A stretch of 18,594 nt of DNA, taken from NCBI GenBank assembly GCA_048940925.1, contig JBHLOC010000041.1, positions 23,965 to 42,558 of the forward strand. Reading direction: 5' to 3'. The notes under the pieces are model-generated. The model was not told the DNA's origin. It did not search any database and saw only the letters and a list, made by a program, of their open reading frames with translations. The DNA comes from Promethearchaeota archaeon (GTDB lineage Archaea; Asgardarchaeota; Lokiarchaeia; Sigyniarchaeales; SOKP01). The position numbers and the translations under genes are program-made. How positions within the stretch are numbered: position 1 is the first letter of the stretch; every line of letters begins with the position of its first letter. This document shows positions 4,256 to 14,711 of the stretch, in pieces.

Positions 4256-4813
4256 TTGGCGAAAAAAATGGAGGAGGCATTAAAAGAAAAATTTACATTC
4301 AAGGTAACCGTCATTGGAGACGGTTTCGTCGGTAAAACCTCGCTAATTAACAAGTTCACCCAAGGGGGTTTTCAAGAAGATTATATCCAGACTATCGGTG
4401 CTCAATGGTCTAAATATGAAGAAAATCTCGAAGGAGATTTATGCAAATTGTTTTTCTGGGATATCGCAGGTCAAGATGCTTTCCATTTCTTGCGACCTGT
4501 TTTTTACAAATCAAGTTTAGCAGCCATTATTGTGTTTTCTATTGAAGATAATGATTTTGGTCAAGAAAGTTTTAAACATATATCGAATTGGCATGATGAA
4601 ATTAAAAAATTCTGTGGAGATATACCAGTAGTACTTTTTGGCAATAAAGTTGATTTAGTTGATGAGGAAAAGATAGATGAGGAGAAGATTCTAAAATTAG
4701 TTAACAAGAGGAACTTTATAGGGTTTTATCGAACGTCAGCAAAAACAGGACATAATGTTGAAAGCGCATTCAAAGCAATAATAAAAGAATTGCATGATAG
4801 ATATAAATCTTAA
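4256..4813 (+). CDS. Rab/Ras-superfamily small GTPase (Asgard-type eukaryotic signature protein)
   Basis: G1 GDGFVGKT, G2 YIQTIG, G3 WDIAGQ, G4 GNKVD, G5 TSAK; no C-terminal Cys prenylation motif. Confidence 0.95.
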   Translation: MAKKMEEALKEKFTFKVTVIGDGFVGKTSLINKFTQGGFQEDYIQTIGAQWSKYEENLEGDLCKLFFWDIAGQDAFHFLRPVFYKSSLAAIIVFSIEDNDFGQESFKHISNWHDEIKKFCGDIPVVLFGNKVDLVDEEKIDEEKILKLVNKRNFIGFYRTSAKTGHNVESAFKAIIKELHDRYKS

Positions 4814-8859: not shown

Positions 8860-9182
8860 ATTATCTCACTATATTTTAAAATATATAATTTATACCAATT
8901 CTAGAGTAATTTTATACTTTTAAACAATCTTTCTTAAAAAAGATCCAAATATCATATAGATATACTTAGTTTTAATCTTTCTTACTACACTTCCCAAAAA
9001 TACAATAGAAAATGAATATTTATTTATTAAAGTTAAATTTCAAGCTTTGCCCAGATTATGGTCTAAGCTTAATAGTAGATACGATAATTCGGATTCTTTT
9101 TCATTTGATGATGGACAACTATGTAAAAGAATTAATAAATAGTAAGCAATAAAATAAAAGAAAAGAATTAGAAATAAATTAA

Positions 9183-9805
9183 TTATTCACTTTCATATTC
9201 TTTAAGTATATCGCCAAAAAGACGTTTTACAGCATCAATACGAGTCTCTTCTCCAATTTGTTCAACGTTTTTCAAGCTTATGGCTTCTTTCGGGCAAACT
9301 AAGATACATTGGGGCTCTTTGATACCAGTTTCTTCATCAATAAATTCATCTTTCATATTTTCACAGAGATCACATACCAACGCTTTTTGGGAATCTAAAT
9401 GCAAGCTAATTACGCCAAAATCGCAGGCTCTCTTGCTAATGTATGCGATTTGCTAATGCATTTTATGCAGAACCCGCAACCGTTACACTTATCATCATCC
9501 ACGATAATTGATCCTGTTTCTGGGTCTTGTTCTAATGCTTTTTCAGGACAACTACGAATACATGGTGCATCTTCACATTTCTGACAAGCCAGAGCTATAT
9601 TAAACACTGGTTCAATTCGTATACGATGAATCCTTGCATTAATAGGGTTAAATTCACCATCATGTACAAAAGAGCATACGGATTCACATGTCTTACGCTT
9701 TTTGGGAAATCCAAATAGAGTTTCGCACCCCGTACACAGATTTGGATCAACAATAATGAATTGGTGGACTTTGCCACCTCGCTTTTTAGTTCCTATTTTT
9801 GACAT
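9183..9805 (-). CDS. 4x[4Fe-4S] electron-transfer subunit (DmsB/CooF/AorA-like) of the adjacent AOR; three exons 9805-9722, 9691-9464 and 9431-9183, giving 186 aa after splicing
   Basis: Joined product: MSKIGTKKRGGKVHQFIIVDPNLCTGCE|TCESVCSFVH...CQKCEDAPCIRSCP...CNGCGFCI|RACDFGVISLHLDSQKALVCDLC...PQCILVCPKEAI...YESE, with all 16 canonical Cys in four motifs. Merges track ORFs 9410-9805 and 9183-9404. GAGGTG RBS upstream of ATG 9805. Confidence 0.9.
9432..9463 (-). other. Candidate BHB-like intron 2, 32 nt, frameshifting
   Basis: mRNA: UUGCGGGUUC-UGCA-UA^A-AAUG...CAUU-AGCA-AG^A-GAGCCUGCGA. It has a 10-bp exon-exon stem (with G-U pairs), a central helix with 3 of 4 pairs, two 3-nt bulges and an intron stem AAUG/CAUU. 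Removal restores CNGCGFCIRACDFG and the frame. Confidence 0.8.
9692..9721 (-). other. Candidate BHB (tRNA-type) intron 1, 30 nt, in frame
   Basis: mRNA: G-UGCG-AA^A-CUCUAUUUGGAUUUCCCAAAAAG-CGUA-AG^A-C. It has a 4-bp central helix UGCG/CGUA, two 3-nt purine bulges and an intron hairpin UUUGG/CCAAA. Removal converts CTGCETLFGFPKKRKTCESVC to CTGCETCESVC. Confidence 0.75.
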
Positions 9806-9821
9806 TTTTTCACACCTCTAT

Positions 9822-11750
9822 TTATTTCTTCTTACCTCCTGCTGGTTTTAAGTTTCCAATTACAAAATCCATTCCAAGTTTCTTTAATGTTGCATCTGTT
9901 GGGATCCCTGTTTCTTTATCCCATCCTCTTGCTTCATAATATCCACTTAACAACTTCTGAAAACCATCTTCCTTTAACATTACTCCCTTTGCAGGACCTT
10001 TTGTATGTGCCGTAGTAAAAAATCTTTCAGGTGGATGATCATCAGCTCTCGTCCATCCTTCTCTGATATTGAAACATTTTGATAAAGTAACAATAGCGGC
10101 TCCTCGTAAAAGTATAGATTCTTCCGTATGCGGAATTCCAGTAACCAGTTCAAAAACTTTTGCCAATTCAGCATCGTTTTCATAAATACCTCGAGTAAAT
10201 TTACAGATAACATACGAATCTATAAGGGCATAGGGATCTTCAAGTGCGATAATTGCTTTTCCACGTTCTAATGGCTTATCATAACCAAATCTGTCAAAAT
10301 TTCCCTTAGCATCGAGCCCATATGAACCATTTCGTAAGTGACAAGCGCCTCTAATAGATACGCTTTCTCCTACTGCAAAGGTGCTCATTCCATGTAAATC
10401 AAATGCAGGCATTTCCAAGCCTTTAATGTGCATTGCATACTTACTTGCTCCTTTTCTTCCCATTTCTTCTAATTTTTCACCGGCAACTTTAGTTCCATGA
10501 CCAAATATTTCACCCGCAAAACCTTTCTCAAGAATCATTTCTTCTGTAAAACGTGCTAAATTTTTAGTGGAACCAAATGGGAGTTCATAACCAAGATCAT
10601 CTTTGGTTATCAGTCCGTCAGTAAACAAATCACATGCCATTGCAGCTGTAACTCCTCCGCTAATGGCATCAATTCCTAAGTCATCACATAAATGAATACA
10701 TTTAAATACAGTTGGCCAATCAGCATTACCACACCCTGTTCCAAATCCATATAATAATTCAATATCAACACTAGCTATGAGATTTGGCCAATCAGGATGC
10801 GTTTTAGGAATCCGAGCTAAATGATCACACCCTATAGAACATTGGGAACATGCAACTTTTTTAACAACCCAATCTTGGTTAAGGGTATCTCCTGTAAATT
10901 CTCCATTGGTGATTTTATCCCATGTACCTTCGCGATGATTAAAAGTAGGCATCATTCCAAGTTTATTATAACTAGTGAGCCCCGCAGGGGTTCCTAAATC
11001 ACGATATTTTGCTGTTGCAGGGCCATTAGCAACCTTTATTAATTTTTTAGCTAATTTATAGAATTCTTTTGGAGATGCCACCTTAATTCCTTTCGTTCCC
11101 CTAAAGCATATTGCCTTTAGATTTTTAGAGCCCATAACAGCACCCATACCAGTCCTTCCTGCTTGCCTATTTCTGTCGTTAGTAATACACGCCATATGAC
11201 TCATTCGTTCTCCTGCAGGTCCAATCGACAAAACAGCTAAACGTTGATCTTGGAAATCTTCTCTTATAATTTCTTCAGTTTCAAAAGTACCCTTACCCCA
11301 CACAGTTTTTTCACATGGAACTAAATAATAATCATCGTCATCAACAACCATGTAAACAGGTTCAGGTGATTTTTCTTTAAATACTAACATATTTACACCT
11401 GCACGACGAGCTTGGGCACCAACTGAACCAGAAGAAATTGCCATACCAAACATTCCAGTCAATGGAGATTTAGCAAAGACTCCGTATTTTGATGATGTTG
11501 GTAAGATTGTACCTGGAAAAGGACCTTGAGCATATACAAAAATATTTTCTGGACCTAGAGGATCAACACCTGGTTTTAATTCATCCCAAAGTACTTTTGC
11601 ACCAAATCCATACCCCCCAATCCAATCGCGGCAGAATTCATTGGACAATGTTGATTTTTCAATTTTCCCGTTTGCTAAATCGATATCCAGTCTTACTTGA
11701 CTAAAACCTTTTATTTCATCAGGAACAGGTATTTCTTTCGCTTTACTCAT
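9822..11750 (-). CDS. aor: Tungsten-containing aldehyde oxidoreductase (AOR/WOR family), catalytic subunit
   Basis: WIGGYGFG, KSPLTG, IGPAGE, GRTGMGAVMGSKNLKA, the CSQCSIGC...RGACH [4Fe-4S] ligands, DDLGIDAIS pterin-binding motif and YYEARGWD..TGIP C-terminus. Confidence 0.96.
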   Translation of the reverse strand: MSKAKEIPVPDEIKGFSQVRLDIDLANGKIEKSTLSNEFCRDWIGGYGFGAKVLWDELKPGVDPLGPENIFVYAQGPFPGTILPTSSKYGVFAKSPLTGMFGMAISSGSVGAQARRAGVNMLVFKEKSPEPVYMVVDDDDYYLVPCEKTVWGKGTFETEEIIREDFQDQRLAVLSIGPAGERMSHMACITNDRNRQAGRTGMGAVMGSKNLKAICFRGTKGIKVASPKEFYKLAKKLIKVANGPATAKYRDLGTPAGLTSYNKLGMMPTFNHREGTWDKITNGEFTGDTLNQDWVVKKVACSQCSIGCDHLARIPKTHPDWPNLIASVDIELLYGFGTGCGNADWPTVFKCIHLCDDLGIDAISGGVTAAMACDLFTDGLITKDDLGYELPFGSTKNLARFTEEMILEKGFAGEIFGHGTKVAGEKLEEMGRKGASKYAMHIKGLEMPAFDLHGMSTFAVGESVSIRGACHLRNGSYGLDAKGNFDRFGYDKPLERGKAIIALEDPYALIDSYVICKFTRGIYENDAELAKVFELVTGIPHTEESILLRGAAIVTLSKCFNIREGWTRADDHPPERFFTTAHTKGPAKGVMLKEDGFQKLLSGYYEARGWDKETGIPTDATLKKLGMDFVIGNLKPAGGKKK

Positions 11751-11890
11751 ACTTCACACTTAAAAATTATTAAAATATTTTGATTTGATTGTAGATACTA
11801 AAAATAAATTATCAAAATTTTAAAGGTTACTTGTTAATCCTAAAAACTCCATTGTTCAAAATTAGAAAAAAACTAAAGATAAGAAAGAAT

Positions 11891-11912
11891 AATTTGTTGA
11901 TCTTAACAAATT
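11891..11912. promoter_or_regulatory. Inverted repeat AATTTGTT-gatctt-AACAAATT between the hdrD fusion and aor (operator or terminator hairpin)
   Basis: Perfect 8-bp arms seen directly; function not determined. Confidence 0.3.
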
Positions 11913-11948
11913 CTACAAATCTGTATAAAAAAACCTTTTAAAAATAGT

Positions 11949-14711
11949 TTATGTTAAAAAGAGAAGCTTTCCAATAAAGCTAACAAGATCAATTATTGTT
12001 ATTTTATCCTTTAGCTCTTTATGTTCATTTAGATAGCAATTTAGATGAGCGATACACTTAGGGCATGCAGTAATTAAATATTCTGCCCCTGTGTCAATAG
12101 CTTGAGTAATTTTCTTTTCCTGTAAGAATTTTGAATCTTCACTGCAAGAAATATATGCTGAAACTCCACAACAATCTGCATCTTGTCTATTATCTTCCAT
12201 TTCAATTAATTCCACAGATGGTATTAATTTTAAAACCTCACGAGGAGCATCGAAAACATTGCTCATTCTTCCAAGTCTACAAGGATCATGATAAGTGACT
12301 TTAATTTTATCAAAACTGGGAAATGTTAATCCTTCAAATAGATTCTCTTTTAATATATATTCAGTAATGTGATATATTTTAAAATCAAACTCATTAGTAT
12401 CTTTAAAAAGTTTCTTATATTCATATTTCCAAGTATAATATCCCTCAGCACAGCTAAATACAATCGTATTGACTCCTGCTTCTTTAAAAAGATTAACATT
12501 ATATTTTGCTAGTTTCTCGAAATTTTCGGTGTCTCCTTGCCATAAAAGATCATGCCCACAACATTTTTCTTCACCTAAAACTACTGGGGTAATGTCACTT
12601 TGGTTCAATAATGCTATTACGCTTTTTGGTATCTCTAAATAATCTAAGGCATTAATCGAACTAAAATTTGGTTGTTCTCCATAATGACAAGTCATAATCC
12701 CTGAAGAATCAAGAGAATTATTGTAATCATCAAGAATTTGATCATAACTACAGCAGCAATTACAGTTCATGCATCTACTTGCTTCTGCGATTGCCTGCTC
12801 CTCTGTAAATCCAAGTTCTATTTCTTTAAAATTAGTAAGTCGTTCTTCGCTTGATACAAGATTGATTTTTTGTTGCAGTTCTTCATCAATCTGTTTTTTT
12901 GGAATAGGCGAACGCTTTAAATTTTCTCGTTTGATCCTACCTTTTCTTAAATCACGTCCTCTGAGATACCGATCAATTGATTCTGCAACCTCTTGGCCAT
13001 GTGCTATTGCAGTTATAGCAACCATTTTAGGATTTGGAACAATGTCTCCTCCCGCAAAAACACCAGGAATGCTTGTTTCAAAAGTGATGTCATCTATTAA
13101 GATCTTACCTCTTTCATGTTGGAGTTGATCTCCAGTAGCTGCTAAAATTGGCTCCAAATCAAGTCCTTGACCGATTGCAATAACAATTATATCAGATGTA
13201 ATTTTAAATTCTGAACCCTCCACTTTAATTAATGGTTTTCTCCCAGTATTAGGATCTGGTTCACCCCATTCAATTTTATAACAATTCAACGCTAATTTAT
13301 TTCCTGATTCTTTTGTTATCTTTGATGTTGAGGTTTTAAAATGATACTCTATTAACTCCCTCTCAGCATCATGGATATCTCTAAGTACAAGTTGAAGATC
13401 CTCTTCAGTTAATATATCTACTAAATCAACTTTCTTAGCTCCTAATCTCAGAGCAGTTTCAGCAACATCTACTGCCACAGCACCTCCACCTATGATTCCA
13501 AAAGTTTTTCCTTTATATTCATCTTTATTCTGAGGGAATTTATACTTTCGCTCAAGAAGGAAATCAATTGCAACCTGAACATTCGGTAAGTCTTCTCCCT
13601 CAAGGTGTAAAGTTTTAGGAACGTATAAACCTGTAGCTATAAATGTAGCTTTAAAACCTTCATTTTTAAGGTCTTCAAGAGTTAAACCTTGACCAAAAGG
13701 TTTATTTAATAAGATATCCACACCCATATTTTTTATAAATTCGATATCATGATCAAGGGCTTTATCAGATAATCGATATTGGGGTACACCATACCGCACC
13801 ATTCCTCCAATCTTATCTCCTTTCTCAAAAATCGTAGGTTTATATCCCTTTCTTGCGAGGAGATAGGCTGCTGATAACCCTGCTGGTCCAGCTCCTATGA
13901 TTGCCACTTTTTCTTTATCTTGTTTTACGGGCTTAATTTTGCTTAAATCAGGATTATTCATCTCCCAATCTGAAATAAAGCGCTTTAAAACTCTAATAGC
14001 AAGGGGATCATCAATATATTGACGATTGCAATTCAACGCACAGTATTCTGTACATATTCTCCCACATAAGAAAGGTAAAGGGTTGGCTTCCCTTATAAGA
14101 TCAATAGCTTCTTGAAACTTCCCTTCTGCTATTAGCGAGACATAACCTTGGACATCTACTCCAGCAGGGCAGGCACATGAACATGGAGCAATACCTGTCA
14201 TATATGGAGTACACCCCATAAAATAACCGATTTCTCCCTTATTAGCAACCTTTAAATCAGTACCTTCTAAAAAACCAAGCTTATTTGTAATTTTTATTTT
14301 TCCATTAGCCATTAAATAAGGTAAGCTAGAATATTCCCTATTATGATGACATATAAGCAATTCATCTTGCAATGGCTTATAATCAGAAGAGAGAGATCGG
14401 AGATCTTTTATAATTTGAGTAAAATTAACCCCGATATCTTCTTTAGTCATAGGACAATACTCTGAACAGAGCCCGCATGTTAAACATTTCCATATATTAT
14501 TATTCTTTAATGCTTCTTCAGGTGATAAAAATGTTAAATCTACAATTAAACTACGTGGATAAAATAGATCAAGAAATGCAGTAGGACACACCATATTGCA
14601 ACGATTACAATTATAACAATAATTAGCTGCAGCATTAACTTTCTTTATAACTTCTATTGATTCTTTACTCTCAAGTTTTTTAATTGGCTCTTTATCTTTA
14701 GAAACAGTCAT
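11949..14711 (-). CDS. HdrD-like FeS/CCG-domain oxidoreductase with an inserted GltD/NfnB/SudA-type FAD/NAD(P) module
   Basis: N-terminal CYNCNRCNMVCP and CLTCGLCSEYCP. The first CCG domain is split (GYFMGC ... EKCCG ... FSCAEG) and the second is intact (YHDPCRLGR...DCCG...TACPKC). The insert has APCSCACP, CGRICTEYC, GAGPAG, GGGAVAVDVA, FAGGD and EASRCMNC. Confidence 0.9.
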   Translation of the reverse strand: MTVSKDKEPIKKLESKESIEVIKKVNAAANYCYNCNRCNMVCPTAFLDLFYPRSLIVDLTFLSPEEALKNNNIWKCLTCGLCSEYCPMTKEDIGVNFTQIIKDLRSLSSDYKPLQDELLICHHNREYSSLPYLMANGKIKITNKLGFLEGTDLKVANKGEIGYFMGCTPYMTGIAPCSCACPAGVDVQGYVSLIAEGKFQEAIDLIREANPLPFLCGRICTEYCALNCNRQYIDDPLAIRVLKRFISDWEMNNPDLSKIKPVKQDKEKVAIIGAGPAGLSAAYLLARKGYKPTIFEKGDKIGGMVRYGVPQYRLSDKALDHDIEFIKNMGVDILLNKPFGQGLTLEDLKNEGFKATFIATGLYVPKTLHLEGEDLPNVQVAIDFLLERKYKFPQNKDEYKGKTFGIIGGGAVAVDVAETALRLGAKKVDLVDILTEEDLQLVLRDIHDAERELIEYHFKTSTSKITKESGNKLALNCYKIEWGEPDPNTGRKPLIKVEGSEFKITSDIIVIAIGQGLDLEPILAATGDQLQHERGKILIDDITFETSIPGVFAGGDIVPNPKMVAITAIAHGQEVAESIDRYLRGRDLRKGRIKRENLKRSPIPKKQIDEELQQKINLVSSEERLTNFKEIELGFTEEQAIAEASRCMNCNCCCSYDQILDDYNNSLDSSGIMTCHYGEQPNFSSINALDYLEIPKSVIALLNQSDITPVVLGEEKCCGHDLLWQGDTENFEKLAKYNVNLFKEAGVNTIVFSCAEGYYTWKYEYKKLFKDTNEFDFKIYHITEYILKENLFEGLTFPSFDKIKVTYHDPCRLGRMSNVFDAPREVLKLIPSVELIEMEDNRQDADCCGVSAYISCSEDSKFLQEKKITQAIDTGAEYLITACPKCIAHLNCYLNEHKELKDKITIIDLVSFIGKLLFLT

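What the first reader, a model, noticed from the sequence alone, without database searches (positions are those of the whole stretch)
9692..9721. Intron 1: canonical BHB geometry, in frame and therefore invisible to ORF callers
Seen: 5' strand UGCG-AA^A and 3' strand CGUA-AG^A give a full 4-bp helix (one G-U) with two all-purine 3-nt bulges, closed on the intron side by CU/AG and UUUGG/CCAAA. The exon side is weaker: one G-C pair, then a bulge, then UGUACGGG/UCCGUAUG. Unspliced, it puts 10 extra residues between Cys2 and Cys3 of a CxxCxxCxxxC motif, which should prevent cluster binding. Inference: in-frame introns of this kind could be hidden in many apparently intact genes.
Basis: partly seen in the sequence, partly recalled or inferred. 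Interest (0 to 1): 0.8.

Follow-up and report, generated by a model that had tools for sequence, protein, structure and literature searches.

The report
In-frame tRNA-type intron in Asgard mRNA
A 30-base insert that splits an iron-sulfur binding motif in a healthy metabolic gene of an Asgard (Loki-type) archaeon is very probably an intron cut out by the tRNA-splicing enzymes; it keeps the reading frame open, but such invisible introns look like the exception in this genome, not the rule.

Summary
Observation confirmed. Window 9692-9721 (minus) is a 30-nt, stop-free insert between Cys2 and Cys3 of the first CxxCxxCxxxC motif of the Fe-S subunit gene behind an aldehyde:ferredoxin oxidoreductase. 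Most orthologues lack exactly these 30 nt. Eleven other loci carry an insert at the same site (10 distinct sequences in all). [quoted passage not shown] Pairing is kept through compensatory changes while the peptide drifts (pN/pS 0.52 against 0.046 in exons). One genus carries a 34-nt frameshifting version with a perfect BHB. All exons are under purifying selection, and a heteromeric EndA and RtcB are present. A BHB mRNA intron of the cbf5 kind is the best reading (about 0.85); no spliced RNA was seen. This BHB is not the minimum-energy fold here. A motif-free census of 1.73 Mb found 10 comparable inserts, none stop-free and in frame, so 'many hidden' is unsupported. In-frame cbf5 introns are already published. 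The scan has noted such introns before, in this and other Asgard genomes.

The parts
9692..9721 (-). Intron 1: 30 nt, phase 0, in frame and stop-free, between Glu28 and Thr29 of the spliced protein
   Evidence: Absent from 17 of 17 orthologues and from 29 more loci; present at the same site in 11 other loci
9724..9727 (-). 5' strand of the BHB central helix (UGCG, exon 1; Cys27 codon plus first base of Glu28)
9721..9723 (-). 5' bulge AA^A; predicted cut between 9722 and 9721
   Evidence: Only register shared by all carriers
9694..9697 (-). 3' strand of the central helix (CGUA, intron)
   Evidence: 97% of cells paired across 9 distinct 30-nt introns
9691..9693 (-). 3' bulge AG^A; predicted cut between 9692 and 9691
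9701..9715 (-). Inner intron hairpin UUUGG/CCAAA; same register as CCAGG/CCUGG (G075, L195) and CGGG/CCCG (L189, L192)
   Evidence: 4 of 5 pairs with changes on both sides
9722..9805 (-). Exon 1 of the 4x[4Fe-4S] electron-transfer subunit gene
   Evidence: dN/dS 0.023 against G018
9464..9691 (-). Exon 2
   Evidence: dN/dS 0.031 against G018
9432..9463 (-). Intron 2: 32 nt, frameshifting, relaxed BHB (3 of 4 central pairs, 12-pair exon helix), in the third Cys motif
   Evidence: Shared with G018, L199, L200 at register 0; other lineages carry a perfect-BHB 32-nt intron 1 nt upstream
9183..9431 (-). Exon 3 and stop; removing both introns gives 186 aa, 166 of 186 identical to the intronless G012 orthologue
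   Evidence: dN/dS 0.051 against G018
9822..11750 (-). Upstream aldehyde:ferredoxin oxidoreductase (AOR/WOR family) large subunit, intact, same operon
   Evidence: nearest paralogue in the genome 34% identical

Best explanation
The insert is a tRNA-type (BHB) intron in an mRNA. The aor-FeS transcript folds so that the Cys27-Glu28 codons pair with the intron's 3' end in a 4-bp helix between two 3-nt bulges. The (alpha-beta)2 splicing endonuclease EndA cuts after the second base of each bulge and RtcB ligates the exons, restoring CxxCxxCxxxC. Intron 2 is removed the same way, giving the 186-aa four-cluster subunit. Shown: the insert, its ends, conserved pairing, relaxed protein-level constraint, selection on all exons, presence of the enzymes. 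Inferred: cutting and ligation in vivo. Being in frame and stop-free is most likely an accident of length (30 nt is the modal size here) and phase: the BHB end fixes the last two codons, and shuffled inserts of these sequences are stop-free 47-73% of the time. The site has gained or lost an intron at least 6 times in the family.
For: Exact 30-nt gap in orthologues. Twelve loci with an insert at the same site, 10 distinct sequences, only 7-28 of 30 bases shared between the 30-nt ones. The intersection of alignment-equivalent registers over all carriers is register 0, the BHB cut. Central helix 4 of 4 in 9 of 10 distinct inserts. Structure 83.7% paired with 12 two-sided changes, 0 of 500 shuffles as high, slid controls 28-54%. 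L188 against L191: 3 changes, all non-synonymous, two forming a compensatory C-G to U-A pair. Insert pN/pS 0.52 against exon 0.046, Fisher P 1.3e-4. G061 (another genus) has a 34-nt insert with stops and a frameshift at the same site, with a perfect BHB as its MFE and an otherwise intact gene. Exon dN/dS 0.02-0.05, including exon 3 beyond the frameshift; no close paralogue. EndA alpha with the Tyr-His-Lys triad and the crenarchaeal-type loop lysine, EndA beta and RtcB are all present. Asgard EndA of this type is reported to carry the loop that allows relaxed motifs (PMC5829648). Ten further 29-31-nt BHB-like inserts lie in conserved genes of this genome.
Against: No spliced RNA and no cleavage assay. 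The BHB is 3-6 kcal/mol above the MFE in this genome and is also suboptimal in G075, L189 and L192, all stop-free carriers; G075 has a C-A mismatch in the central helix. The canonical first exon-side pair holds only in this genome; the conserved exon helix needs a looped-out base. The DNA pattern search required TGCGAR, so the 5' helix strand was fixed for five carriers, and the protein search could only find stop-free ones. Carriers are related, so shuffle counts overstate significance.
Confidence: 0.85

Rival explanations
1. Exonised or leaky intron: the insert arose as a BHB intron but, being in frame and stop-free, is often or always retained and translated as a 10-residue loop, giving a 196-aa isoform that tolerates or loses cluster 1.
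For: All 9 distinct 30-nt inserts at this site (3-4 lineages) are stop-free, against 0 of 7 elsewhere in the genome. The BHB is suboptimal in several of them. Removing only intron 2 gives an open 196-aa frame.
Against: The peptide is unconstrained (pN/pS about 0.9 in the three close pairs, 0.52 pooled) while pairing is conserved. Four stop-free lineages are expected by chance with P about 0.1-0.2. No homologue has a non-BHB insertion in this motif: spacing is 2 or 12, never in between. G061 must splice at this site.
Confidence: 0.07
2. Removal by a route other than EndA/RtcB on the RNA: DNA-level excision of a tiny mobile hairpin in part of the population, or ribosomal bypass of the hairpin.
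For: Patchy distribution with at least 6 gains or losses, and one clade rejected (p-AU 7e-92), fits a mobile sequence.
Against: No target-site duplication or terminal repeats; the ends follow BHB geometry including exon-intron pairing; no second copy in the genome. No contig joined across intron 1 in the four runs laid (contigs drop rare variants). Bypass would not need cuts at the second bulge base.
Confidence: 0.05
3. Inert insertions in a decaying gene, or an assembly artefact.
For: The gene has two lesions, and the insert matches a stretch of its own exon 3 at 20 of 22 bases, as a local duplication would.
Against: Present unchanged in contigs of other samples; same site in 11 other loci; exon dN/dS 0.02-0.05 on both sides of the frameshift; no further lesion; it is the only close partner of an intact AOR. 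The self-match is seen in no other carrier.
Confidence: 0.03

Closest known systems
cbf5 pre-mRNA BHB intron of Crenarchaeota (Desulfurococcales, Sulfolobales; Watanabe 2002; Yoshinari 2006; Yokobori 2009, PMC2738675)
   Same: Short intron (16-44 nt there, 30-34 nt here) inside a coding sequence; BHB or relaxed BHB with cuts between bulge bases 2 and 3; interrupts an essential motif; variable interior with conserved borders; heteromeric EndA. In-frame cases are already described there (33, 36 and 39 nt).
   Different: Asgard (Promethearchaeota/Lokiarchaeia) host; a metabolic Fe-S gene; two introns in one gene; at least 10 more such inserts in the same genome; scattered presence needing 6 or more changes, against one gain and two losses for cbf5; splicing is shown for cbf5 and not here.
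HVO_1309 5'-UTR BHB intron of Haloferax volcanii (PMC7714728)
   Same: mRNA substrate of the splicing endonuclease
   Different: That intron lies in the 5' UTR, not in coding sequence, and was confirmed in vivo and in vitro.
Asgard tRNA introns (bioRxiv 10.64898/2026.10.13.758758)
   Same: Repeated gains at BHB-compatible sites in Asgard genomes, missed by standard annotation, route of arrival unknown
   Different: That study covers tRNA genes only; 'mRNA' does not occur in its main text.
Fe-S small subunit of tungsten aldehyde oxidoreductases (PDB 6x6u_B, 6x1o_B, 8c0z_C)
   Same: Host protein family: four-cluster electron-transfer subunit next to an AOR (E 1e-23 to 4e-21)
   Different: Concerns the host gene, not the intron.
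Ultra-short 3n introns of ciliates (PMC5014332)
   Same: Short introns of length divisible by three are enriched for in-frame stops; here 7 of 7 census introns of 30 nt have one
   Different: Those are spliceosomal and policed by nonsense-mediated decay; no such pathway is established in archaea (own knowledge), and the signal here is weak (P about 0.045, n = 7).

Membership tests
Archaeal BHB (EndA/RtcB) mRNA intron, cbf5 type | Insert absent from orthologues; precise removal restores the conserved protein | tested here: met
   (186 aa, 166 identical to G012)
Archaeal BHB (EndA/RtcB) mRNA intron, cbf5 type | 4-bp central helix between two 3-nt bulges, intron ends at base 2/3 of each bulge | tested here: met
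   4 of 4 pairs at register 0; only register common to all 12 carriers
Archaeal BHB (EndA/RtcB) mRNA intron, cbf5 type | Flanking helices on the intron and exon sides | tested here: met
   Intron side 2 pairs plus inner stem with covariation; exon side relaxed (1 pair, or 5 of 6 with a looped-out base)
Archaeal BHB (EndA/RtcB) mRNA intron, cbf5 type | BHB is the favoured fold of the precursor | tested here: inconclusive
   3-6 kcal/mol above MFE here; equals MFE in G061, L188, L191
Archaeal BHB (EndA/RtcB) mRNA intron, cbf5 type | Pairing conserved, not peptide | tested here: met
Archaeal BHB (EndA/RtcB) mRNA intron, cbf5 type | Host encodes heteromeric EndA with catalytic triad and specificity loop, and RtcB | tested here: met
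Archaeal BHB (EndA/RtcB) mRNA intron, cbf5 type | Spliced mRNA or EndA cleavage demonstrated | not testable with these tools
   No RNA holder listed; only DNA contigs were laid
Group I / group II self-splicing introns | Ribozyme core of 150 nt or more with conserved domains | tested here: not met
   30 nt; no Rfam match in 9000-12000 at E up to 1
Spliceosomal intron | GU...AG ends | tested here: not met
   Ends are AC...AG, CU...GA or UC...AC in the three registers; other carriers end in AA or AU
Homing-endonuclease-carrying archaeal rRNA-type intron | Intron-encoded or adjacent homing endonuclease | tested here: inconclusive
   Too short to encode one. None recognised among neighbours listed, but no family scan was run and two ORFs next to L192 are unidentified.
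Insertion sequence / MITE | Terminal inverted repeats, target duplication, multiple copies | tested here: not met
   Single copy; best other genomic matches are 13-14 nt

The most novel reading that the evidence does not exclude
This Asgard lineage splices roughly 25-30 protein-coding genes with the tRNA machinery (10 found in about a third of the coding sequence, in genes such as aIF2-gamma, an EF-2 family gene and RNA polymerase subunit N), and its introns are under a eukaryote-like 'spell-check': 30-nt introns keep an in-frame stop so that unspliced messages abort. This stop-free intron would then persist mainly because the frameshifting intron 2 downstream guards it (10 of 11 stop-free carriers have intron 2; 4 of 45 sampled non-carriers do), with introns moving between lineages into the same site.
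Probability: 0.25. Interest if true: 0.85.

Novelty: new variant of a known kind. Interest (0 to 1): 0.66.

Why it matters
Published coding-region splicing in archaea rests on one gene, cbf5; I found no paper on mRNA BHB introns in Asgard archaea in five searches of an open-access library (also 90). If these inserts are spliced, the closest prokaryotic relatives of eukaryotes routinely process mRNA with the ancestor of TSEN/RtcB, the chemistry behind eukaryotic tRNA and XBP1-type splicing (own knowledge). This site is an unusually good test case: in-frame, frameshifting and intron-free alleles exist at one position, so splicing efficiency, the fate of retained introns and the route of gain can be compared directly. 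For annotation, public databases hold the unspliced products as proteins, but the census says most such introns betray themselves by a stop or frameshift and only a few per genome are fully hidden.

Tried and rejected
RNA evidence: no RNA holder listed; this is no evidence either way, and only DNA contigs could be laid. Motif-only scan for hidden in-frame introns: counts at 30 nt (897 and 583) were no higher than at frame-breaking lengths (826-930 and 520-573), but the background is too high to exclude a few dozen. A strict energy filter gave 36 candidates, with no 30-nt peak and 16 in regions where the comparator shows no gap; it passes only 2 of 10 census introns, so it is uninformative. Structure: a single-sequence model of the unspliced L188 protein was unusable (pLDDT 37). 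With a 70-row alignment pLDDT was 62, below 50 over the insert and residues 44-74, with no spliced control, so inconclusive. Origin by copying from the same gene: the 20-of-22 match to exon 3 is significant here (0 of 1000 shuffles) but absent in the 7 other carriers tested and in all 10 census introns; left unexplained. Co-conversion tracts: divergence near site 2 was about 20% in intron+/intron- pairs against about 10% elsewhere, but one intron-free pair shows 24% too, so not established. The first tree mixed non-homologous upstream DNA and was replaced. Promoter/terminator scan at chance level. No intron family within the genome: intron 1 resembles none of the census introns. (in part) and 87 were slips and were rerun or dropped.

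Full report
Context. The window comes from a 4.8-Mb, 90-contig genome. Close orthologues are named Promethearchaeota or Lokiarchaeota in public records, so the host is a Loki-type Asgard archaeon. The finding lies in a minus-strand gene at 9805-9183, 16 nt behind an intact 642-aa aldehyde:ferredoxin oxidoreductase. The intronless orthologue matches the Fe-S small subunits of tungsten aldehyde oxidoreductases (6x6u_B, 8c0z_C). The nearest paralogues in the genome are 31-34% identical.

Observation. The 30 nt at 9692-9721 add ten residues between Cys2 and Cys3 of the first CxxCxxCxxxC motif, with no stop. The pairing is as described. Shuffling the insert gives a full central helix in 2.2% of cases and helix plus two intron pairs in 0.3%. 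Contigs from run X8, and from X5 (possibly the source sample), span it without a difference.

Orthologues. Seventeen of 17 orthologues lack exactly these 30 nt, as do 29 more loci. A protein search of 135 family genomes matched 106. Judged from match spans, and from DNA where a match was split, only this genome, G075 and G061 carry an insert at the site. A DNA pattern found five metagenome contigs, and protein searches four more. That gives 12 loci and 10 distinct inserts, nine of 30 nt and one of 34 nt. Each allows two to five equivalent registers; only register 0 is common to all, and it is the BHB cut. The central helix is complete in nine of ten.

Structure, not peptide. On a gap-free alignment of the nine 30-nt inserts the structure is 83.7% paired with 12 two-sided changes; none of 500 shuffles reached that, and slid controls gave 28-54% (related sequences inflate this). 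The first two intron pairs switch between C-G/U-A and U-A/C-G, and the inner stem reads UUUGG/CCAAA here, CCAGG/CCUGG in G075 and CGGG/CCCG in L189 in one register. L188 and L191 differ by three changes, all non-synonymous, two of them one compensatory pair. Pooled over four disjoint pairs, pN/pS is 0.52 in the insert and 0.046 in flanking exons (Fisher P 1.3e-4). The strongest single argument is G061, from another genus: its insert at the same site is 34 nt, has stops, shifts the frame, folds into a perfect BHB as its MFE, and sits in an otherwise intact gene.

The gene is alive. A second insert (9432-9463, 32 nt) shifts the frame in the third Cys motif. Removing both gives 186 aa, 166 identical to G012. 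Against G018, dN/dS is 0.023, 0.031 and 0.051 for exons 1-3. The genome encodes two EndA subunits and RtcB. The alpha subunit best matches solved structures that I recall as crenarchaeal (3p1z, 3ajv, 2cv8) and keeps the Tyr-His-Lys triad and the loop lysine. Asgard EndA is reported to be of this (alpha-beta)2 type with the loop that permits relaxed motifs (PMC5829648).

Are in-frame introns hidden in many genes? I aligned 2.4 Mb of tiles from two relatives (G006, G023; under half of each) to this genome without using the motif. About 1.73 Mb of this genome was covered, flanks included. Ten inserts of 29-31 nt with BHB-like hairpins appeared inside conserved coding motifs. Three shift the frame, seven are 30 nt with an in-frame stop, and none is stop-free. 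The stop-free in-frame gaps that did appear lack a BHB and are mostly low-complexity or poorly aligned. Shuffles predict 2.5 stop-free among the seven (P about 0.045). Extrapolation (inference) gives roughly 25-30 such introns per genome, of which a few would be hidden; 0 of 10 bounds the share at about 26%. Introns shared with both comparators are missed. Motif-only scans showed no excess at 30 nt but lack power. In this genome the gene is visibly broken by intron 2, and the 131-aa unspliced stub is a public protein entry. L188, from a public marine-sediment contig, is the fully hidden case: a clean 195-aa ORF.

Evolution. On a tree of exon sequences, intron 1 needs 8 changes, at least 6 forced by supported branches; one clade is rejected (p-AU 7e-92 on the 50-row tree). 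Carriers sit beside intron-free sisters (this genome/G018, G075/G012, L189/G022). Inserts of this genome, G075, L195/196 and L189/192 look homologous (15-24 of 30 bases between lineages, same stem register), so either the intron moved between lineages or it was lost precisely many times; I could not separate these. Ten of 11 stop-free carriers also have intron 2, against 4 of 45 non-carriers. Joint inheritance, intron-rich lineages or a guarding role would each explain that.

Mechanism. Most likely (0.85) EndA cuts after base 2 of each bulge and RtcB joins the exons. The insert, its ends, its covariation, selection on the exons and the enzymes are shown; splicing itself is inferred. No RNA holder was listed. 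Rivals are partial or full retention as a translated loop (0.07), removal by another route (0.05), and decay or artefact (0.03). The claim that retention blocks cluster binding follows from the invariant spacing but was not shown; the fold prediction was inconclusive.

Comparison and novelty. It works like, and meets every feature testable here but one (the favoured fold, inconclusive) of, the cbf5 pre-mRNA intron. In-frame cbf5 introns of 33, 36 and 39 nt are already described (PMC2738675), so frame preservation is not new. The only other archaeal mRNA substrate I found is a 5'-UTR intron in Haloferax (PMC7714728), and the 2026 Asgard intron preprint treats tRNAs only. What is new against the papers I could search is the Asgard host, a metabolic gene, two introns per gene, many genes per genome and repeated turnover at one site. 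Earlier notes of this scan report the same kind of intron in this genome and others, including in-frame cases and this gene family; I used them as leads and recovered several independently. Verdict: real, very probably a BHB mRNA intron, a new variant of a known kind; interest 0.66.

Noticed in passing
window 9380-9400 (minus) against 9694-9715: Intron 1 matches a stretch of the gene's own exon 3 at 20 of 22 bases (0 of 1000 shuffles as high). No other carrier tested and no census intron shows such a self-match; chance, recent gene conversion or templated repair are all open.
   Followed up: partly
window 9432-9463; L002, L199, L200 against L004, L180, L189, L191, L192, L195-L198: Intron 2 of this lineage forms its BHB at register 0, whereas all other lineages form it 1 nt upstream, with the same 32-nt length: a 1-nt intron slide or a second gain next to the first.
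   Followed up: partly
L188 6657-7241 (minus), contig LAZR01001364.1: Full-length 195-aa ORF that hides a perfect 30-nt BHB insert with no second intron: the truly invisible case.
   Followed up: yes
L181 679-712 (G061): 34-nt frameshifting, stop-containing perfect BHB intron at the same site in another genus.
   Followed up: yes
G000 contigs C70 ~60065(-), C32 ~27924(-), C71 ~54628(+), C54 ~3387(-), C43 ~76097(-), C17 ~5105(+), C64 ~13206(-), C26 ~36792(+), C68 ~45887(-), C58 ~85081(+): Ten 29-31-nt BHB-like inserts in conserved coding motifs. By the flanking peptides (my recognition, not searched): EF-2 family (C32), methylmalonyl-CoA mutase (C71), metal hydrolase (C54), GH38 mannosidase (C43), AMP/thymidine phosphorylase (C64), RNA polymerase subunit N (C26), aIF2-gamma (C68).
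   Followed up: partly
G000 contig C62 ~7984 (minus): 65-nt frameshifting insert in the zinc-binding region of the largest RNA polymerase subunit (by flanking peptide). It contains a good 30-nt BHB at its 5' end, so possibly two tandem or nested introns (30 + 35 nt).
   Followed up: partly
G006 tiles, orthologous to G000 C4 ~3133 and C85 ~11204: G006 has its own perfect BHB inserts (28 nt in a uL11-like gene, 32 nt in another) but far fewer than this genome over the regions compared: intron load differs between lineages of one genus.
   Followed up: no
genome-wide: ARAGORN finds an incomplete, oddly called tRNA set with many introns, suggesting non-canonical or multiple tRNA introns in this genome too.
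   Followed up: no
window 11949-14711 (minus): 920-aa fusion of an HdrC/D-like Fe-S and CCG region with a GltD-like flavoprotein, upstream of aor; no insert against G018 (0 gaps over 2754 nt).
   Followed up: partly
window 4256-4813 (minus): Rab-like small GTPase gene (by sequence motifs), a typical Asgard eukaryotic-signature gene; intact.
   Followed up: no
L180 against L003 and L196, between the two intron sites: G075 exon 2 is 23-25% divergent from close relatives against 8-10% upstream, suggesting local recombination within this gene.
   Followed up: partly
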